A stretch of DNA of 32,000 bases from Allobaculum fili (lineage in GTDB: Bacteria; Bacillota_I; Bacilli_A; Erysipelotrichales; Erysipelotrichaceae): positions 1 through 32,000 of the forward strand of contig NZ_JAHDSX010000016.1 of NCBI RefSeq assembly GCF_020969955.1, in the 5' to 3' direction. A program made the position numbers and the translations under genes. Below the pieces are notes generated by a model. That model was not told where the DNA came from. It made no database searches and saw only the letters and a program-made list of their open reading frames with translations. Positions 3,064 to 13,942 of this stretch are shown piece by piece (the first letter of the stretch is position 1; each line of letters starts with the position of its first letter).

Positions 3064-4218
3064 TTATTCGGCAAGTCCGGGAAGAAAAGGATCGGACTGC
3101 GGATTCATGGACGCAGCCAGTTCGCACCAGTCGCCAAGCCGTCTGGAAATGCCGGTAAAAAACGGGTCTGGCGGCGTATTTTCGGGACGGTGATGTTTCA
3201 GCATGTGTGCAGCTAGAGAAGCGATCTCGTCGTTTGTACGGGCGTAGCAGGCATAGCCGTGACGTTCGAAAAACTCCGCGTTCTGTGTTTCACATCCTGG
3301 AATCGCAAACGCAAGCAGCAGCGGCGTTCCGGAAGCGGCCGCTTCGGTAATGGAAAGGCCGCCTGGTTTCGTAATAAACAGATCCGCCAGCTGCAAGTAC
3401 TGAAAAATGTTTTTCGTAAAGGCCACCGGGGAAATGGATGGATCGTTGAACTTTTCGATGCGGCGATACAGTTTCCGGTTGTTGCCGCAAAGCACGAGAA
3501 TGTGCAGATCCGGCTGGTCTTCAAGCAGCGGCTGCAGGGAAATGAGCATGGGCCAGAGACCTTTAATGCCCATCGATCCGCCGCCGACTAAAACGTAGCG
3601 TCTGGAAGGACTCAGCCCTAATGCCTTGCAGGCTTTATCCCGGCTGGTGCGCAGATCGAACTTGCGATCGACGGGAATGCCGCAGGGGATCATGCGGGAG
3701 TGATCGACGCCTTCCTGAAAGAAGGTCTCCACCAGATCGGGATGGGGAATGGTCATCCAGTCCGTCTGAACGTCGCTTTCAAAGGGAATGCACGTATAGT
3801 CGGTGGGAATCATTACGCTAGGCGGAACGTGCAGACCATGGTTTTTCAGCCAGGTGAGCATGAGTCCCGGATACGGATGCGAACACAGGATAAGATCGAC
3901 TGGATGTTCGCTCAGCCAGCGATGCAAAGCCAGAGCGGTCTTTTTCTGGACCGCCAGAACGGGATTGGGCAGGCTGAAGTTTCGCTCGCCTTCTTCGTAC
4001 AGGCGGCCGAGCTGATAGACGGCGCCAAAGAGATGCGGCGAAAGCTGCACCATGGAAACGTAGGCGCTGCCGACGCGCCTGGCCATCTGCGGCGAGCGCA
4101 AAGAATACGGGTCGAAGAAATGTACGGTCCAGCCGCGCGCCGTGAGTTCGTGGACCATAGCGTGTGCGGCGGAATTGTGACCGCCGCCGGTCGAACAGGA
4201 CAGAATCAGCGCTTCCAT
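3064..4218 (-). CDS. UgtP/MGDG-synthase-like diacylglycerol glycosyltransferase (GT-B fold, GT28-like)
   Basis: MEALILSCSTGGGHNSAA N-terminal Gly-rich motif and FITKPGGLSITEAAASGTPLL C-terminal motif. Start moved to the ATG at 4218 (GGAGG 10 nt upstream); the 83 codons further upstream in the ORF track overlap plsY and are not protein-like. Confidence 0.8.
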   Translation of the reverse strand: MEALILSCSTGGGHNSAAHAMVHELTARGWTVHFFDPYSLRSPQMARRVGSAYVSMVQLSPHLFGAVYQLGRLYEEGERNFSLPNPVLAVQKKTALALHRWLSEHPVDLILCSHPYPGLMLTWLKNHGLHVPPSVMIPTDYTCIPFESDVQTDWMTIPHPDLVETFFQEGVDHSRMIPCGIPVDRKFDLRTSRDKACKALGLSPSRRYVLVGGGSMGIKGLWPMLISLQPLLEDQPDLHILVLCGNNRKLYRRIEKFNDPSISPVAFTKNIFQYLQLADLFITKPGGLSITEAAASGTPLLLAFAIPGCETQNAEFFERHGYACYARTNDEIASLAAHMLKHHRPENTPPDPFFTGISRRLGDWCELAASMNPQSDPFLPGLAE

Positions 4219-4829
4219 AAAAAGCTTACCTCCATATCCGGCCGGGCTTCTTTGGACAGGCCGAGTCTTGCGAGTACAGAAACTGAAGTCAGAGCCGCTC
4301 CACCGACTAAAACGGAAGCGGCCTGCAAAGCCAGACACATGGGGGCGTAAAGAATAAAGACAAGCCCCGTCATGTAGAAATTCGGACGAATTCGAATGAC
4401 CAGCGTAAAGGTCAGAAAAAGCACGATTAAAGCCAGCGTGGGCAGAAAGCTCACCTGACCGGCCCATACGCCAAGGGCGGAGCCAAATGTGGCGGCGATG
4501 CCTTTACCGCCGCGAAAACGATAGAAAATGGGGAACAGGTGTCCAAAGACCGGCGCCCACATGACCAGCATCAGACTGCAGGGGATCAGGGCGCATTCTG
4601 GCGTGCGGGTGTACAGATAAACCGGAAGGAAGGCTTTGCCCAGATCGCCGAGCAGAACGAACAGACCGCACCAGAACCCGCCTTTTTCAAAGGCGTTGAA
4701 GGTGCCGGGATTGCCGTCCTCGGTTCCCAGGGTGGCGTCTTTTTTCGAAAACAGTGCCGAGTAAAGGTGAATATAGAGAATGCTCCCGGAAAGATAACCG
4801 AACAGCAGATAGGCGAATAGTGTCATCAT
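4206..4829 (-). CDS. plsY: glycerol-3-phosphate acyltransferase PlsY
   Basis: Polytopic membrane protein with EDGNPGTFNAF and FRGGKGIAATFG (PlsY motifs GSGNxGATN / KGGKGVAT). Its stop overlaps the downstream glycosyltransferase start by 13 nt. Confidence 0.85.
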   Translation of the reverse strand: MMTLFAYLLFGYLSGSILYIHLYSALFSKKDATLGTEDGNPGTFNAFEKGGFWCGLFVLLGDLGKAFLPVYLYTRTPECALIPCSLMLVMWAPVFGHLFPIFYRFRGGKGIAATFGSALGVWAGQVSFLPTLALIVLFLTFTLVIRIRPNFYMTGLVFILYAPMCLALQAASVLVGGAALTSVSVLARLGLSKEARPDMEVSFLWKR

Positions 4830-4973
4830 GATTCTCTATATTATATCGAAAAGCCCTTCAGGACCTTTCAATCATGCCAAACGATTTTGTGAGATTGCCT
4901 ATCGCATTGGATTTACAAAAAAGTTACGCACGAAAAAGGAGAAGCCAAAAGCTTCTCCATCAAAAAATCGCAT

Positions 4974-4998
4974 AAAAAAAGCGGAGCGTTAGCTCCGC
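4974..4998 (-). terminator. rho-independent terminator downstream of tRNA-Asn
   Basis: GCGGAGC-gtta-GCTCCGC hairpin at 4981-4998, followed on the minus strand by a T7 run (A7 on + at 4974-4980). Confidence 0.75.
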
Positions 4999-5009
4999 GA
5001 TTGATCAAA

Positions 5010-5085
5010 TGGCGCCTGAAACAAGACTCGAACTTGTGACCTGCCGGTTAACAGCCGGATGCTCTACCGACTGAGCTATTCAGGC
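5010..5085 (-). tRNA. tRNA-Asn (anticodon GTT), CCA encoded
   Basis: Reverse complement reads GCCTGAATAGCTCAGTCGGTAGAGCATCCGGCTGTTAACCGGCAGGTCACAAGTTCGAGTCTTGTTTCAGGCGCCA. Acceptor GCCTGAA/TTCAGGC, D arm GCTC/GAGC, anticodon loop CTGTTAA, T arm ACAAG-TTCGAGT-CTTGT. Confidence 0.93.
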
Positions 5086-8988: not shown

Positions 8989-9528
8989 ATGAAATTTGAT
9001 AAAGTACTCGAAAATCGTCGAGCAATCCGCCGCTATAAAAACGAACCGATCGACCATGAGGACATCCGCAGAGTTCTCAAGGCCGCCATTCTTGCGCCAA
9101 GCTGGAAAAATTCGCAGTGCCCGCGCTGGTATGTGGTCACCAACGATCAGCTGCTCGCAGAGCTCCGGGAAAACGGTCTTCCGGCTTTTAACGCGAAAAA
9201 CACGGAAAACGCCCCGTGCCTGATCGTCGTATGCTATGAACCGCGAAAAAGCGGCATGGGCAATGACGGCGAATACGCCAATGCGATCGGGGAAGGCTGG
9301 AGCTGCTTTGACTGCGGCCTCGCGGTAGAAAACCTCTGCCTCGAAGCGAAGCGTCTCGATCTCGGAACGCTCATCATGGGGATTTACAACGAACAGGCCA
9401 TTCGTCAGGCGCTCTCTATTCCAGGAGAGCTCAAAATCATGTGCGTCGTCGCTTTAGGAAAACCGGATATCGATCCGGAAATGCCAAAGCGAAACAAGCT
9501 GAAGGATGTCGCTGTCTTCAAGGACTGA
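8989..9528 (+). CDS. nitroreductase family protein
   Basis: N-terminal RRAIRRYKNEPI and APSWKNSQ motifs typical of the NADH/FMN nitroreductase fold, ~180 aa. AGAGGAG RBS. Confidence 0.85.
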   Translation: MKFDKVLENRRAIRRYKNEPIDHEDIRRVLKAAILAPSWKNSQCPRWYVVTNDQLLAELRENGLPAFNAKNTENAPCLIVVCYEPRKSGMGNDGEYANAIGEGWSCFDCGLAVENLCLEAKRLDLGTLIMGIYNEQAIRQALSIPGELKIMCVVALGKPDIDPEMPKRNKLKDVAVFKD

Positions 9529-9844
9529 TTCCTCCCGGACACTTAATCCTGCCCATTCCAGCCGCTGAATCCGCTCGTTCTACAGAAAACACACCAGCAG
9601 AAAACACAAATGGACAAGGCAGCCCGCGCGGAACGCTTCTCGTTTGGCACGGAACGGCTTTGTCCTTTTTCGTGTTCTGCGCTTTCTGGATCTGAGCTTT
9701 TTTCCTTTCTTTTTCATGATCAGGTGCTGTCCAGGCTTTGTGTGCGTCGTTTCAAACAGGGATAGGGAATAGACGAGATTCCCGCTACAATAGAATGCAC
9801 AGGCCCGCAGAACCCTTTAACCGGAGAAAGGAGGCGAGGAGCGC

Positions 9845-11245
9845 GTGAAGAAACAGAACGTTCTGAAACGGACCGCCCAGTCGATTCGTCATTTTTTTGA
9901 ACATATCCATTCGTATTGGGAACTCTGGAAAAATCGAAGAGAGTACGGGGCGATTGAGTCCAACGCGACGATTCGAGAAATTCACGCGTTTGATCGCGTT
10001 AAGCCGGGCGATCTCGTCTACTGTGAAATGCCCATGAGCGACTGGGCACTTGCGGATGTCCCCAAAGGCCATCGCTGCCGTCCTTACCTGATTCTGGCCA
10101 AAACCGAAGACGGCCTGATCGGCTGTCCTTCCTCGCACAAGCGCCGAAAGAAAATTTCCAGCTGGGTCCAGATGGAACTGAAACCGGAAGATTACGATCA
10201 GTTCATGCTGTTTGGATCCCGTTACCACGCGCAGGGCAGCACGTTTGTGGATCTGAGCCACTGGGAGGAAATCCCGGCGCGTAAAGTGCTCTCTCTTTCC
10301 ACCAGCCTGAAAGAATCGGATCGACGCATTGCCGATCGAATTCTGCGCATGGTCGGCACTCGAAAAGTCAGCACGCAGAAAAGAAAAGGAAGTCCGAAAG
10401 AGGAAGAAACCGTCTGGCAGATTTCCGCGCGTCCCCAGTCCAGAATTCCAGGGGATATTGTTTCGCTTTCTTCCGGGGAGCCGTTTCTGATCAGTACGGT
10501 GGATCAGGATACAGCCTGGGGCTATCGGCTTTCTTCCCCCAGACAGTCTCAGCCCGATTCCAAGGTGCTTTCCGTCGAGAGCATCAATCATTACTTCTTC
10601 CCGTTCGCGTCCCTTCAAAAAGAGAAGCTCGAGCAGCCGGAGCAGTATCCGCTGATCAGCTTCTGCAAAACCTCTACGCTCCTGCAGAAAGAAAAGGAGC
10701 TCAAAGCGCGCAAGGCACAGGACGAGCAGAACGAAAACCCGGCTCGCAAAAAGACCGGTGCGGCTCCCGCGTTTGCCCGCAAGGAACGAATCCGGATCAC
10801 CCGTCAGTGCGGCGGGATCTTTCAGGATTTCTTCAGCGAAAACGAATACGTGTACATGTGGACGTATAAGCAGAGCGAAAAGTATCTGGATCTCGACGAG
10901 TTTTATGACGGCAACGTGGTGATTCGTGAAATCGAACGAAATCGTCTGACCGAACTGGGAATGCTCATTGCGGACGACATTTTTGAAGAAGTACTCGATA
11001 CGCTTGTAAAGCGCCGCTCACTCAGTGAAGACGAGGCACAGCTGCTGCGCGAAAACTTCTACAATCCGCCAGAAGCCGAAGAAGAGGCGCCAGCGGATTT
11101 AACCGACCTGACGGAAGAGAAAACGGAAGATGGCGTAACGGAAGAGCCAGGGATAGCGCAGGCCGAAGCACAGGAGATTCCAGAACCAGAGACAAATCCA
11201 GATCCGGATACGCAGACCAAACCGCAGCCAGACAATAAGATATGA
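9845..11245 (+). CDS. hypothetical 466-aa protein: N-terminal MazF/PemK-like domain, unassigned middle and C-terminal regions, acidic disordered tail
   Basis: GTG start with AAAGGAGG 10 nt upstream. Residues ~52-170 follow the PemK/MazF pattern: KPGDLVYCEMP..., HRCRPYLILA, LIGCPSSHKR, STFVDLSHWEEIPARKV..., SDRRIADRIL. The last ~60 aa are rich in E, D and P. Confidence 0.6.
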   Translation: MKKQNVLKRTAQSIRHFFEHIHSYWELWKNRREYGAIESNATIREIHAFDRVKPGDLVYCEMPMSDWALADVPKGHRCRPYLILAKTEDGLIGCPSSHKRRKKISSWVQMELKPEDYDQFMLFGSRYHAQGSTFVDLSHWEEIPARKVLSLSTSLKESDRRIADRILRMVGTRKVSTQKRKGSPKEEETVWQISARPQSRIPGDIVSLSSGEPFLISTVDQDTAWGYRLSSPRQSQPDSKVLSVESINHYFFPFASLQKEKLEQPEQYPLISFCKTSTLLQKEKELKARKAQDEQNENPARKKTGAAPAFARKERIRITRQCGGIFQDFFSENEYVYMWTYKQSEKYLDLDEFYDGNVVIREIERNRLTELGMLIADDIFEEVLDTLVKRRSLSEDEAQLLRENFYNPPEAEEEAPADLTDLTEEKTEDGVTEEPGIAQAEAQEIPEPETNPDPDTQTKPQPDNKI

Positions 11246-11283
11246 AAAAACGGACAGATCGCAGAGATCTGTCCGTTTTGATT
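11245..11283. terminator. bidirectional rho-independent terminator between convergent genes
   Basis: ACGGACAGATC-gcaga-GATCTGTCCGT, an 11-bp perfect stem at 11250-11276, flanked by A6 upstream and TTTTG downstream. Confidence 0.85.
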
Positions 11284-11311: not shown

Positions 11312-13942
11312 CTAGAGCATCGCTCTCTGACTGCGTTTCAGGAAAAACTTTGGATCCGCCGGCGTGAGCGAGGAAATCTCAAAGGTCAGCGCACTGTTCG
11401 CTTTGTGGCCGAGCGTCTGATAAAACGTTCCGCGGGCCGCATAGGCGGTACCGTTTGAGGATGTCGTGCTTTGCGGAGCTACATCCGGGGTGTCCGTTGG
11501 CGGAACCTGCGTTCCAGGATCATTGCCCGGATCATCTGGCGGCGTGCCTGGATCCGTTGGCGGGGTCGGAATGCTGGGATCATCGCCCGGATTCTGACCT
11601 GGAGGCGTCTGATTGCCGGGATCCTGATTGCCGGGATCATCAATTGGAAGATCCGGATCTTCGGAAGGTACTTCGGATTCTACATCCGGTACGCAGGCGT
11701 TGTTGTTGAGCTTATAGCCGTCCGGGCAGGAGCAGGCTCCGTTATCAAAGGAACCGCCGCTGGCGAGGCAGGCTTTACGGTTGGCTTCAAGAAGCTGGTT
11801 GGTGTAGCTGTCGCCGGCATCCGGATCGCCTTTTTCAAGGAATTCGGTTTTGATCAGACCGCCTTTGTAGTCGGAAATCTGATCCGGACGCTCGATTTCA
11901 TGGTAGTTGCCGTTTGGCGCCAGGTAATCGAGCATGTAGCGGTTGATGTGGAAGGCCGGTGCGGCTTCGAGTTCGGTCCAGCCCATGTAGTAGCCCTGCA
12001 TGAAGTAGGCAGGCAGATAGCCGGACCATGTCGCAATCGAATACGTTGAGGTGTAGCCGATGGACCATTCGTCTTTCATAACTCCGGCCGGGATGCCGTA
12101 CTGGGCCCCTTCTTCTTCCCAGGAGGATGTACCGGATTTCGCGTAGGCCACATAATCCGGGCTGCCGAGGATTTCGTTGTAGTTCTGATAGCCGCCGTAA
12201 ACAACTTCCTTGAGCAGCGTGCTCATCATGTAGGCGGCCTGTGTGGAAATCAGTTCGTATTCAGTCGAATCGCCGCTGATTTCCATGTTGTCGGAACGGC
12301 GGATGATTCGTCGGATCCGGTGCGCGTTGATTCGGGTACCCTGGTTGGCAAACATCGAGTACGCCGAAGCCATCTGGGTAGGGGAAGCGTACATGTCGGC
12401 ACCGCCGATCGAATACTGCGGGGCGAAGAGTTCGGCGGTTCGCTCATCGAAGCCGAGCTTCTTACAGAAGTCTACCCAGTAATCCGTACCGGTCGCGTCG
12501 ACAAGATCGATCATCGCTGCGGCGGCGGTGGTGTTTTTCGAAACGCCCAGCGCTCTGGCCAGCGACATTTTCCCATCGTATTTTCCGTCGGAGTTTCGCA
12601 GGTTGGATCCGCTGTGCCAGTAGTCTTCCGGTTTGTCGTCCACGATATGGGCGGTTGACCAGCCGAGAATATCAAAGGTTGAGCTGTAGGCGAGCAGCGG
12701 CTTCATGGCGGAACCCGGCTGACGGGTGTTCATGGAGTTGTCCTGCTTAACCGATACCGAATCGGAATGGTAATGACGGCCGGCACCGACGGCGATAATT
12801 TCACCGGTGCTGTTGTTGATGATCGTCGTACCGAAGTCCATCATCTCGTTCGGGAAGGCGACGACTTCGCCGTTCATGATCTTATCGAGCTCGCTTTGCG
12901 CGCCCTGATTCAGAGCGGTGTAAATGTCCATCGGGATAATGGCCGGGTCCTGACCGGTCAGGCTCTGTGCTTCCTGAATGACCTGGTCAATGTAGGCCTG
13001 GTTCGGGTCAACGGAAATGGTTTCGTGATAGTTCAGCGCGAACGCCAGATCTGCGTTCTTTTCGAGGTTGTATTCCTCTTCGGTGATGTAGCCGTGGTTG
13101 AGCATCAGCTGAAGCGTCGTGTTTCTTCGCTCCTGTCCGGCGGCGAGATGGTCGATCGTATCGGTTTCATCCGACGCGTTGTGGATGTTGTTGAGCGGGT
13201 TGTTGGTAAACGGCGCGTTGATGCTTCCGGCAAGGAAGGCGGCTTCGCCAAGGTTCAGCTGCGAGACATCCTTATCGAAGTAGTAGCGCGCGGCTTTCTG
13301 TATACCTCGTGTGTTGTTTCCGGAACCAAACCAGATTCGGTTCAGGTAGAACTCCATAATGTCTTCCTTGTCGATGGTCTGTTCCGCAATGAGAGCCAGG
13401 TAGATTTCCTGGATCTTCAGCTTGATTTTATCGAGGGTGGAAAGCGAACCTTTTTCCGCTTCCAGCTTGGCTTCCTGGTTTTTGGTGAAGGCGTTGTCGA
13501 TCATCTGCATGGTCAGTGTCGAACCGCCCTGGCCAAGACTTCCGCTCTGCAGGTTGGAAAGAGCGGCTGCCGTGAAACGCGGAAGGTCAAAACCGTTATG
13601 AGTAAAGAAACGGGAATCCTCTACCGCCAGGAAGGCGTCGATGACATTTTGCGAAAGCTGATCGTACGTAATGTCGTCGCGGATTTCGGAACCAAATTCA
13701 TAAAACATGTTTCCGGAATCATCAAAGATTCGGGAGTTGGATAATGTGGACAAGCCGTCCTTGGAAAAGCGCATGCCTTCCGGGTCGTTAATAATATTGA
13801 CGAGCACGAAGAAGACCGAAACGCATCCGACCAGAAACAGGGTCAGAACGGCGATCGCGATCTTGTTCCAGGCATCGAGCGTCTTTCGCGGCTTGCCAGT
13901 AGGGCGGGCGGAAGGTTGGCGCCCGTGTTGCTGCTGTGCCAT
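11312..13942 (-). CDS. ponA: class A penicillin-binding protein (PBP1A-type transglycosylase/transpeptidase) with Cys-rich and Pro-rich C-terminal extension
   Basis: GT51 motifs EDSRFFTHNGFD and GGSTLTMQ. Transpeptidase motifs SAMK (SxxK), SKN (SxN) and KSGT. N-terminal TM anchor. AAAGGAGA RBS. Directly downstream of recU, as in Bacillus. Confidence 0.93.
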   Translation of the reverse strand: MAQQQHGRQPSARPTGKPRKTLDAWNKIAIAVLTLFLVGCVSVFFVLVNIINDPEGMRFSKDGLSTLSNSRIFDDSGNMFYEFGSEIRDDITYDQLSQNVIDAFLAVEDSRFFTHNGFDLPRFTAAALSNLQSGSLGQGGSTLTMQMIDNAFTKNQEAKLEAEKGSLSTLDKIKLKIQEIYLALIAEQTIDKEDIMEFYLNRIWFGSGNNTRGIQKAARYYFDKDVSQLNLGEAAFLAGSINAPFTNNPLNNIHNASDETDTIDHLAAGQERRNTTLQLMLNHGYITEEEYNLEKNADLAFALNYHETISVDPNQAYIDQVIQEAQSLTGQDPAIIPMDIYTALNQGAQSELDKIMNGEVVAFPNEMMDFGTTIINNSTGEIIAVGAGRHYHSDSVSVKQDNSMNTRQPGSAMKPLLAYSSTFDILGWSTAHIVDDKPEDYWHSGSNLRNSDGKYDGKMSLARALGVSKNTTAAAAMIDLVDATGTDYWVDFCKKLGFDERTAELFAPQYSIGGADMYASPTQMASAYSMFANQGTRINAHRIRRIIRRSDNMEISGDSTEYELISTQAAYMMSTLLKEVVYGGYQNYNEILGSPDYVAYAKSGTSSWEEEGAQYGIPAGVMKDEWSIGYTSTYSIATWSGYLPAYFMQGYYMGWTELEAAPAFHINRYMLDYLAPNGNYHEIERPDQISDYKGGLIKTEFLEKGDPDAGDSYTNQLLEANRKACLASGGSFDNGACSCPDGYKLNNNACVPDVESEVPSEDPDLPIDDPGNQDPGNQTPPGQNPGDDPSIPTPPTDPGTPPDDPGNDPGTQVPPTDTPDVAPQSTTSSNGTAYAARGTFYQTLGHKANSALTFEISSLTPADPKFFLKRSQRAML

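What the first reader, a model, noticed from the sequence alone, without database searches (positions are those of the whole stretch)
9845..11245. 466-aa orphan protein with a MazF/PemK-like toxin domain and a long acidic tail: possible single-chain, self-inhibited toxin
Seen: residues ~52-170 follow the MazF/PemK strand order (PGDLVYCEMP, RCRPYLILA, LIGCPSSHKR, STFVDLSHWEEIPARKV, SDRRIADRIL). A second PGDIV-type SH3-like segment follows at aa ~201-245, then an unassigned ~90-aa module (aa 320-405) and a ~60-aa tail dominated by E, D and P. Established: MazF toxins are ~110 aa, are encoded next to a small antitoxin, and are neutralised by the antitoxin's acidic C-terminal tail occupying the RNA-binding groove. 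No antitoxin-sized ORF with an RBS flanks this gene; it is monocistronic between two strong terminators. Inference: a fused architecture in which the acidic tail acts in cis as the inhibitor. Alternatively, the MazF fold may have been recruited for a non-toxin role.
Basis: partly seen in the sequence, partly recalled or inferred. Interest (0 to 1): 0.6.

Follow-up and report, generated by a model that had tools for sequence, protein, structure and literature searches.

The report
Stand-alone tandem-repeat MazF-like ribonuclease

Summary
The ORF (9845-11245, +, 466 aa, GTG start, good RBS) is real. Residues ~48-172 are a MazF/PemK-fold domain. Support comes from Pfam PF02452 and PHROG "MazF-like" hits across the family, a PDB profile search, hhalign against canonical MazF, and Foldseek (46 of the top 50 hits are MazF structures). 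The catalytic Arg and Thr/Ser of Bacillus MazF align with R79 (70/70) and S97 (S/T 64/70).

New here: residues ~199-290 are an internal duplicate of the MazF-like domain (hhalign 97.6%, E 3e-12). This copy lacks the catalytic loop. Residues ~319-410 form an SH3-like barrel plus two helices.

The protein is not an orphan. It belongs to an unannotated family ("hypothetical protein") found in 60/401 genomes of its bacterial family. No protein or RNA antitoxin is conserved beside it. About a quarter of loci carry a WYL regulator plus a small HIRAN protein, but the window's genome does not.

The acidic tail occurs only in the query's clade (family median tail 2.5 aa), and similar tails end about 1.4% of this genome's long ORFs.

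Best reading: a single-chain, probably pseudo-dimeric MazF-family endoribonuclease. Activity, domain packing and regulation are inferred, not shown.

The parts
9827..9835 (+). Ribosome-binding site GAAAGGAGG, 9 nt before the GTG start
   Evidence: Read directly from the sequence.
9845..11245 (+). CDS of the 466-aa tandem-repeat MazF-like protein (stop codon included)
   Evidence: The family HMM matches over aa 6-371.
9845..9976 (+). N-terminal basic, predicted helical segment (aa 1-44, net charge +5)
   Evidence: The AF2 model predicts a helix over aa 2-33 at low confidence. Charge. A basic N-terminal segment is typical of the family (median net charge +5).
9986..10360 (+). Repeat 1: MazF/PemK-fold domain (aa 48-172), putatively catalytic
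10028..10087 (+). Extended beta1-beta2 loop and active-site strand (aa 62-81, MPMSDWALADVPKGHRCRPY). M62, H76, R79 and P80 are invariant.
   Evidence: Column counts over 70 sequences. R79-P80 align on the MazF Arg25-Pro (PMC7354611).
10130..10138 (+). S96-S97-H98. S97 aligns with the MazF catalytic Thr48 position.
   Evidence: hhalign. Position 97 is S or T in 64/70; position 98 is S, H or T in 70/70.
10361..10438 (+). Basic linker 1 (aa 173-198, net charge +4)
   Evidence: AF2 gives no structure here.
10439..10714 (+). Repeat 2: degenerate internal duplicate of the MazF-like domain (aa 199-290). It lacks the catalytic loop and catalytic residues.
   Evidence: hhalign of repeat 2 against repeat 1: probability 97.6%, E 3.4e-12, 87 columns. 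Real score 56.7, versus a shuffle maximum of 11.9 and 8.9 for the reversed alignment. The columns aligned to the catalytic positions are unconserved.
10715..10798 (+). Lys/Arg-rich linker 2 (aa 291-318)
10799..11074 (+). Module 3 (aa 319-410): small SH3-like beta-barrel followed by two acidic helices. It may be a third, very degenerate repeat.
   Evidence: AF2 model of aa 312-414: pLDDT 72.9, pTM 0.59. Foldseek gives no significant hit; the best-superposing hits are MazF structures (query TM 0.50-0.54), alongside SH3-like ribosomal proteins. hhalign of its first hairpin against repeat 2 scores 19.3, versus a shuffle maximum of 9.8. The module is repeated 2-3 times in the 580-690-aa paralogues.
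11075..11242 (+). Clade-specific, probably disordered acidic/Pro-rich tail (aa 411-466, net charge -15)
   Evidence: (pLDDT ~30).
11247..11279 (.). Bidirectional intrinsic terminator shared with the convergent PBP1A gene (14-bp stem, A-run on one side and T-run on the other)
   Evidence: strand folding: -28.3 kcal/mol on the + strand and -24.1 on the - strand, z -4.6 and -5.0.

Best explanation
The gene encodes a member of an unannotated family of stand-alone, multi-repeat MazF-fold proteins. The family is centred on the Erysipelotrichaceae-level family of gut Bacillota, and the window comes from an Allobaculum species.

Architecture, in order:
- a basic N-terminal helix;
- repeat 1, a MazF/PemK domain that keeps the catalytic Arg (R79) and Ser/Thr (S97) and adds a family-specific invariant His76 and Met62-Pro63 on a lengthened beta1-beta2 loop;
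- repeat 2, an internal duplicate of that domain that has lost the catalytic loop;
- module 3, an SH3-like barrel with two helices;
- in this clade only, a disordered acidic tail.

Most likely mechanism (inferred): canonical MazF works only as a homodimer whose RNA groove runs along the dimer interface. Here the dead repeat 2 probably packs against repeat 1 as an intramolecular pseudo-dimer. That would give a single-chain endoribonuclease with one active site. The basic linkers and N-terminal helix would help hold RNA.

The protein has no dedicated protein or RNA antitoxin. Control is therefore probably transcriptional and/or exerted by its own C-terminal modules. In about a quarter of family loci a divergent WYL regulator and a HIRAN protein sit beside the gene; the window lacks them.

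Shown: fold, duplication, residue conservation, absence of a partner gene.
Inferred: RNase activity, pseudo-dimer packing, mode of control.
For: - MazF fold and homology of repeat 1.
- Active-site conservation across sequences only ~20% identical: R79 and P80 70/70, H76 70/70, M62 70/70, S/T97 64/70. R79 and S97 map onto Arg25 and Thr48, which are experimentally required in Bacillus MazF (PMC7354611).
- Internal duplication: hhalign 97.6%, E 3.4e-12, score 56.7 versus a shuffle maximum of 11.9. Repeat 2 is unconserved at the catalytic columns.
- The repeat 1 + repeat 2 core is present in nearly all family hits.
- No conserved small partner gene in 33 loci. No MazE or MazF elsewhere in the genome. 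No repeat RNA or Rfam element upstream.
- The gene sits among housekeeping genes and shares synteny with a near-identical complete chromosome.
- Several copies per genome in some genera, which argues that the protein is tolerated without an antitoxin.
Against: - No structural evidence shows that repeats 1 and 2 pack as a MazF-like dimer. The only full-length model has mean pLDDT 46, and repeat 2 is at about 25-35.
- RNase activity is untested.
- The query alone scores below every curated threshold, and the profile-level matches to MazF are modest (PDB E 0.01; hhalign probability 35%).
- The extra invariant His and the longer loop could mean a different chemistry or substrate.
- Module 3 is present and is multiplied in the longer paralogues. 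That fits a beads-on-a-string binding protein as well as a compact pseudo-dimer.
Confidence: 0.5

Rival explanations
1. The protein is a self-inhibited single-chain toxin. The ~56-aa acidic tail folds back into the RNA-binding groove of the MazF domain, as the acidic C-terminus of MazE does, and is released or degraded to activate the toxin.
For: - The query is strongly polarised in charge. Segment net charges sum to +16 for aa 1-318, against -5 for D3, -6 for the C-terminal helices and -15 for the tail.
- All seven close-clade members carry some acidic C-terminal extension.
- No antitoxin gene exists in cis or in trans.
Against: - The tail is absent from most of the family (median 2.5 aa), and those members equally lack an antitoxin.
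- Within the clade the tail is not conserved in length or sequence.
- Similar tails end 19 of 1401 long ORFs in this genome, so this may simply be a habit of the lineage.
- The tail is predicted to be disordered, and no docking was seen, though the model is too weak to judge.
Confidence: 0.12
2. The MazF fold has been recruited to a non-catalytic role. The three barrels would act as RNA- or ssDNA-binding modules, for example an adaptor or regulator working with the HIRAN/WYL genes. The protein would be neither a nuclease nor a toxin.
For: - The protein is multi-copy and lacks an antitoxin, yet is tolerated.
- Module 3 is repeated in the long paralogues, as binding modules often are.
- It is linked to a 3'-end-binding HIRAN protein in 14 of 60 positive genomes.
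- Repeats 2 and 3 have already lost the catalytic residues.
Against: Repeat 1 keeps exactly the residues that catalysis needs, invariant over about 80% sequence divergence (R79-P80 70/70, S/T97 64/70). It also has a further invariant His on the active-site loop. That pattern is expected for an enzyme and not for a mere binding scaffold.
Confidence: 0.2
3. It is a conventional toxin whose antitoxin was simply missed. The antitoxin could be an unrecognised small protein, a type III-like repeat RNA, or an antisense RNA encoded nearby or elsewhere.
For: - Solo MazF homologues with trans-acting partners are known, for example Myxococcus MazF-mx with MrpC (discussed in PMC2701414).
- A 316-nt upstream gap exists.
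- The HIRAN gene abuts the family gene on the same strand in several genomes, the position where an antitoxin would sit.
Against: - No tandem repeats, inverted repeats or Rfam hits lie upstream in the window.
- Flanking the 33 family genes there are only trivial short repeats of about 2-3 copies.
- The small abutting ORFs are heterogeneous.
- HIRAN is absent from the window's genome and from 29 of 60 positive genomes.
- The genome has no PF04014 (MazE) gene.
Confidence: 0.08

Closest known systems
MazF/PemK/EndoA type II toxins (PF02452), e.g. Bacillus subtilis/cereus MazF (PDB 4MDX, 7BXY) and S. aureus MazF (4MZM)
   Same: Repeat 1 has the same fold (Foldseek probability 1.0, target TM ~0.6) and collinear sequence blocks. 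It has the catalytic Arg-Pro and Thr/Ser equivalents.
   Different: - The protein is four times longer.
- The beta1-beta2 loop is about 8 residues longer and carries invariant Met-Pro and His.
- A dead duplicate and a third module follow in the same chain.
- There is no MazE/PemI gene beside it or anywhere in the genome.
- It is chromosomal, among housekeeping genes.
Fused, single-polypeptide toxin-antitoxins (EzeT, CapRel-type; recalled from general knowledge, not tested here)
   Same: A toxin-type domain and possible regulatory domains share one chain, with no separate antitoxin gene.
   Different: In those proteins the extra domain is a recognisable antitoxin homologue or a sensor. Here the added domains are degenerate copies of the toxin fold itself. 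No MazE-like segment was detected, but that test was uninformative.
GajC of type II Gabija (split MazF-like domain; PMC13069673)
   Same: It is a MazF-like fold used outside a classical TA pair. The beta1-beta2 loop is functionally essential.
   Different: [quoted passage not shown] The present family has tandem repeats and no conserved helicase partner. It gives no recurrent PADLOC match.
Type III toxins ToxN/AbiQ (MazF/Kid-like fold with an RNA antitoxin; fold relationship recalled from general knowledge)
   Same: They have a related endoribonuclease fold and lack a protein antitoxin.
   Different: They require an upstream array of RNA repeats. None is present here or in the 33 family loci examined.

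Membership tests
MazF/PemK superfamily (PF02452 fold) | Sequence-profile match to PemK/MazF | tested here: met
   Met at family level. PF02452 matches 19 of 70 relatives, best E 1.6e-5. PHROG 1936 matches 9 of 70. The PDB profile search finds MazF at E 0.01. hhalign gives P 4e-4, above all 30 shuffles. The query alone is below threshold.
MazF/PemK superfamily (PF02452 fold) | SH3-like barrel with C-terminal helix (MazF/CcdB fold) | tested here: met
   In a Foldseek search of the AF2 model, 46 of the top 50 PDB hits are MazF/EndoA/MoxT structures (E down to 3e-4, probability 1.0, target TM 0.54-0.64 for those hits). Caveat: the model's pLDDT in this domain is only about 50-70.
MazF/PemK superfamily (PF02452 fold) | Catalytic Arg (Arg25) and Thr/Ser (Thr48), Bacillus MazF numbering | tested here: met
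   R79 is 70/70 and position 97 is S or T in 64/70. Both align to Arg25 and Thr48 (the roles of these residues are from PMC7354611).
Canonical type II MazEF/PemIK toxin-antitoxin module | Adjacent cognate antitoxin gene (MazE/PemI; AbrB, RHH or similar) | tested here: not met
   No such ORF flanks the gene in the window. No small partner is conserved across 33 loci other than an optional HIRAN gene. The genome contains no PF04014 gene.
Canonical type II MazEF/PemIK toxin-antitoxin module | Small (~110 aa) single-domain toxin acting as a homodimer | tested here: not met
   The protein is 466 aa with three modules. Its oligomeric state cannot be tested with these tools.
Canonical type II MazEF/PemIK toxin-antitoxin module | Sequence-specific endoribonuclease activity and growth inhibition | not testable with these tools
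   This needs expression and RNA-cleavage assays.
Type III toxin-antitoxin (ToxIN/AbiQ-like) | Upstream tandem array of antitoxin RNA repeats | tested here: not met
   TRF finds no arrays. Only three short two-copy direct repeats of 10-13 nt are present. Rfam gives nothing significant. Across the 33 loci there are only trivial short repeats of about 2-3 copies.
Fused (single-chain) toxin-antitoxin with a cis-inhibitory antitoxin segment | A conserved segment in the same chain that is homologous to, or acts as, the antitoxin | tested here: inconclusive
   The acidic tail is not conserved in the family. The comparison with MazE was uninformative because only two genuine MazE sequences were recovered. 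Docking could not be modelled.
Type II Gabija GajC-like effector | Split MazF-like domain encoded next to a GajB (UvrD-type) helicase | tested here: not met
   No helicase partner is conserved among the 33 loci. PADLOC models give no recurrent hit. A divergent SNF2 helicase is seen only in the A. mucilyticum locus.

The most novel reading that the evidence does not exclude
The family may be the effector of a previously unrecognised WYL-HIRAN-tandem-MazF module. In this reading a nucleic-acid-sensing WYL regulator and a 3'-end-binding HIRAN protein sense DNA damage or phage replication. They then switch on, or directly gate, a single-chain pseudo-dimeric MazF ribonuclease that arrests translation. 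Lineages such as Allobaculum that lost HIRAN/WYL would have replaced that control with cis elements such as the acidic tail.
Probability: 0.15. Interest if true: 0.75.

Novelty: new variant of a known kind. Interest (0 to 1): 0.55.

Why it matters
MazF toxins are the textbook case of a small homodimeric RNase held in check by a separately encoded antitoxin. A natural family would break two parts of that model if three things hold: the second protomer has been fused into the chain and has lost its catalytic residues, further barrels have been appended, and no antitoxin gene is kept.

It would show how a toxin fold can be tamed into a chromosomal, multi-copy gene. It would also provide a naturally monomeric MazF-type RNase with one active site, which could be useful as a sequence-specific RNA tool. 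And it would open the question of how such an enzyme is controlled, for which the recurrent WYL/HIRAN neighbours are a concrete lead.

The family lives in Erysipelotrichaceae, including mucus-associated Allobaculum. Public sources name its members only 'hypothetical protein'.

Tried and rejected
1. Searches with the single sequence against Pfam, NCBIfam and PDB gave no usable hit.
2. The search for homologous proteins (all 3 uses) returned only 3-5 relatives.
With a single protein it found nothing in genome contigs.
4. My degenerate DNA pattern for M-P-x11-GHRxRPY returned 112 loci from genome contigs, all chance matches. My estimate of background was too low for GC-rich genomes. The viral contigs pattern scan and alignment scan found no member.
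5. The metagenome scan gave only 3 loci, which were the A. mucilyticum-type gene and partial copies of a P0009-like gene.
6. Structure prediction accepts only certain sources of sequence, so the 70-member alignment could not be used. The 6-sequence model is poor (pLDDT 46) and cannot show domain packing or tail docking.
7. P0003, a 297-aa 'truncated' relative, looked like a pseudogene. It is an assembly artefact: 0 mismatches and 6 deletions in homopolymer or dinucleotide runs over 1900 nt of CP078088.1.
8. The comparison of the C-terminal region with MazE failed. My extraction of upstream antitoxins yielded only two genuine MazE sequences. I do not count it as evidence either way.
9. PADLOC gave no defence-system match.
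11. Literature searches found no description of natural tandem or single-chain MazF proteins. This is absence within the held library only.
12. A search for the accession CP078088 in papers found nothing.
Full report
1. THE OBSERVATION

GAAAGGAGG lies at 9827-9835. Close homologues begin at the equivalent lysine-rich N-terminus, so the start is sound.

Upstream is a nitroreductase gene (8989-9528, +), separated by a 316-nt gap. Downstream is a convergent class A PBP gene (11312-13942, -). Further upstream lie a Na/Ca exchanger, MntP and a HAD hydrolase.

Between the stop codon and the PBP gene is a strong bidirectional terminator at 11247-11279. It has a 14-bp stem and folds well on both strands (z -4.6 and -5.0).

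2. IS REPEAT 1 A MazF DOMAIN?

The query by itself hits nothing useful in Pfam, NCBIfam or PDB. An exhaustive phmmer search of 1.84 billion representatives found 81 relatives. Most are 330-460 aa, and all share the region around aa 45-170.

I aligned 70 of them (A1). The results were:
- PF02452 (PemK_toxin) is the only Pfam family that recurs: 19 of 70 members, best E 1.6e-5.
- PHROG 1936, 'MazF-like growth inhibitor', matches 9 of 70, best E 1.7e-6.
- A profile search of PDB returns MazF, EndoA and PemK as 7 of 11 hits, best E 0.01.
- hhalign of the domain against 21 canonical MazF proteins from the same bacterial order gives an end-to-end alignment of 97 columns (P 4e-4, score 25.9). Thirty column-shuffled controls reached at most 18.3, and the reversed control scored 12.0.
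- An AlphaFold2 model built from only six eligible sequences is poor overall (pLDDT 46). Even so, 46 of its top 50 Foldseek PDB hits are MazF-type structures (probability 1.0, target TM about 0.6, about 125 aligned columns).

I regard the domain call as established.

The alignment places R79-P80 on the MazF 'Arg-Pro' and S97 on the Thr48 position. Arg25 and Thr48 are the residues whose mutation abolishes RNase activity in Bacillus MazF (PMC7354611). Across the 70 sequences, which are only about 20% identical, conservation is as follows:

| Position | Conservation |
|---|---|
| R79 | 70/70 |
| P80 | 70/70 |
| 97 | S or T in 64/70 |
| 98 | S, H or T in 70/70 |
| H76 | 70/70 |
| M62 | 70/70 |
| P63 | 68/70 |

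H76, M62 and P63 are family-specific. They sit on a beta1-beta2 loop about 8 residues longer than in MazF. This pattern argues for a working active site, possibly with modified chemistry.

The 'second PGDIV segment' is not just a short SH3-like piece. hhalign of family columns aa 195-290 against the repeat-1 columns gives 97.6% probability, E 3.4e-12, over 87 columns. The score is 56.7, against a maximum of 11.9 in 25 shuffles and 8.9 for the reversed alignment.

The copy retains the GD-I start, the hydrophobic strands, the 'YxID' strand and the C-terminal helix. It has a 15-residue deletion (16 columns at the profile level) that removes the MP...GHR loop just before the Arg-Pro. The columns aligned to R79 and S97 are unconserved. 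Repeat 2 is therefore a catalytically dead MazF-like domain.

Module 3 (aa ~319-410) folds with usable confidence when modelled alone (pLDDT 72.9, pTM 0.59). It is a small barrel (five strands in the model) followed by two helices. Foldseek finds nothing significant (best E 0.07). The hits are SH3-like ribosomal proteins, and the best superpositions are MazF structures (query TM 0.50-0.54). Its first hairpin resembles that of repeat 2 (score 19.3 versus a shuffle maximum of 9.8), but it does not match repeat 1 above background. A third degenerate repeat is possible but not shown.

In the 580-690-aa paralogues this module is itself repeated two or three times.

4. THE ACIDIC TAIL

In the query the tail (aa 411-466) has net charge -15. 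The whole protein is polarised: segment net charges sum to +16 over aa 1-318, against -5 for D3 and -6 for the C-terminal helices.

Across the family, however, the median tail is 2.5 residues. Only the seven closest relatives have acidic extensions, and these vary in length and sequence.

In the window's own genome, 19 of 1401 long ORFs end with at least 40% D+E+P in the last 50 residues (the query has 44%). Twenty-two have a tail net charge of -12 or lower.

The tail is thus a feature of the clade or lineage. It cannot explain how the tail-less majority of the family copes without an antitoxin.

5. IS THERE AN ANTITOXIN ANYWHERE?

- In 33 genomic loci from many genera, the only neighbours that recur in at least 4 loci and lie within 1.8 kb of the gene are an HTH-WYL regulator and a ~100-aa HIRAN protein. 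Each occurs in 9 of 33 loci. The WYL gene is always on the opposite strand and the HIRAN gene always on the same strand.
- HIRAN identity is solid: 8 of 8 members scanned hit PF08797, best E 1.1e-9, and the profile finds the HLTF HIRAN structures.
- Other small ORFs that abut the gene are heterogeneous.
- Across 401 genomes of the bacterial family, the MazF-like gene occurs in 60 and the HIRAN gene in 92. Thirty-one genomes have both (odds ratio 4.9, not corrected for phylogeny). The two genes lie within 1.5 kb of each other in 14 genomes from 9 genera, in both gene orders.
- The window's genome has no HIRAN gene, no PF04014 MazE gene and no canonical PF02452 gene.
- No tandem-repeat RNA, inverted repeat or Rfam element lies upstream. 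None of the 33 loci has a ToxI-like array.

So neither a type II nor a type III antitoxin is supported. The WYL/HIRAN pair is an optional, non-random companion.

6. DISTRIBUTION AND IDENTITY

The family is patchy:
- 9 of 399 genomes sampled across the class;
- 60 of 401 in the window's own bacterial family, in 23 of 83 genera;
- nearly fixed in some genera (11/12 and 4/4), with up to 4 matches per genome there;
- not found in viral contigs.

The nearest homologue in a sequenced species is 'hypothetical protein [Allobaculum mucilyticum]'. It lies on the same 3,144,153-bp contig as genome G001, which belongs to the window's genus. Another member is 'hypothetical protein [[Eubacterium] hominis]'. 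The window is therefore from an Allobaculum species, and the family is unannotated.

A near-identical complete chromosome (CP078088.1) has the same synteny. Its apparently truncated gene (P0003) results from six deletions in homopolymer or dinucleotide runs, with zero substitutions. That is an assembly artefact and not gene decay.

7. HOW IT MOST LIKELY WORKS

Shown:
- a MazF-fold domain with a conserved active site;
- a fused, dead duplicate of that domain;
- a third barrel-plus-helices module;
- no partner gene.

Inferred: canonical MazF is an obligate homodimer whose substrate and antitoxin groove runs along the dimer interface. This is established knowledge; the concave dimer interface covered by neighbouring loops is described in PMC7354611. 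The simplest reading is that repeat 2 replaces the second protomer, giving a single-chain pseudo-dimer with one active site.

Control would then come from transcription (a WYL regulator where present), from the protein's own C-terminal modules, or both. In this clade the tail may contribute.

My confidence by layer:
- about 0.5 for the whole package;
- about 0.9 or higher for the fold and the duplication;
- about 0.6 for RNase activity;
- about 0.45 for pseudo-dimer packing.

The rival explanations are listed with their tests: tail as cis-antitoxin, non-catalytic binding protein, and missed antitoxin.

8. COMPARISON WITH WHAT IS KNOWN, AND NOVELTY

The protein belongs to the MazF/PemK superfamily by fold, profile and catalytic residues. 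It fails two defining features of the canonical MazEF module: a small single-domain toxin and an adjacent antitoxin.

It differs from fused toxin-antitoxins because the added domains are copies of the toxin fold. It differs from type III systems because there is no RNA array. It differs from GajC of type II Gabija because there is no split domain and no helicase partner (PMC13069673).

I found no paper describing natural tandem or single-chain MazF proteins in the held library. No Pfam or NCBIfam model recurs over repeats 2 and 3.

I class it as a new variant of a known kind. It is interesting to toxin-antitoxin and RNase specialists, but its function is unproven.

9. LIMITS

- The structure tools could only take a handful of sequences, so domain packing and tail docking remain untested.
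- The co-occurrence statistics are not corrected for phylogeny.

Noticed in passing
L172 7050-8438; L181 4781-7365; L211, L213, L220, L223, L225, L226, L178 (related genomes): A divergent pair, an HTH-WYL regulator (~330 aa) and a stand-alone HIRAN-domain protein (~100 aa), recurs next to the tandem-MazF gene in either gene order. This is seen in 9 of 33 loci, and the HIRAN gene lies within 1.5 kb of the family gene in 14 of 60 positive genomes from 9 genera. The small HIRAN gene is more widespread by itself (92 of 401 genomes), which suggests an independent module. It is absent from the window's genome.
   Followed up: yes
G447:C93:6368-7987, G564:C16:28158-29747, G527:C26:472-2154, L184 5001-6701 (P0059): Longer paralogues (565-690 aa) carry the third module (SH3-like barrel plus helices) two or three times in tandem. 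Some genera hold up to 4 matches to the family per genome.
   Followed up: partly
L183 (CP078088.1, GCA_022701175.1) 3157-5049: This complete chromosome is identical to the window over 1900 nt except for six deletions in homopolymer or dinucleotide runs. These split this gene and apparently several neighbours (HAD hydrolase, Na/Ca exchanger). It is a long-read assembly artefact that creates false pseudogenes in public annotation.
   Followed up: yes
whole genome G000; e.g. C79:36750-38132, C182:1301-3229, C153:3543-4571; window 11312-11760: About 1.4% of long ORFs in this genome end in acidic and/or Pro-rich low-complexity tails. The PBP1A gene next to the finding is another example of such a tail. 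This appears to be a compositional habit of the lineage.
   Followed up: partly
L001 / L121 / L180 (Allobaculum mucilyticum-type locus): The same-genus homologue (504-534 aa) has an extra ~100-aa Lys/Arg-rich N-terminal extension. It lies divergent from an 1118-aa SNF2-family helicase, which is followed by MoxR-type AAA and DUF2201 genes. This context differs completely from the window's.
   Followed up: no
order-level survey: Canonical EndoA-type MazF genes are found in 21 of 29 genomes of the sister family f3, but in only 10 of 30 genomes of the window's family, and not at all in the window's genome. The two kinds of MazF-fold gene may be partly complementary in distribution.
   Followed up: no
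window 9583-9608: An exact 11-nt direct repeat, CAGAAAACACA, occurs twice 15 nt apart in the 316-nt gap upstream of the gene. It could be an operator or simply chance.
   Followed up: no
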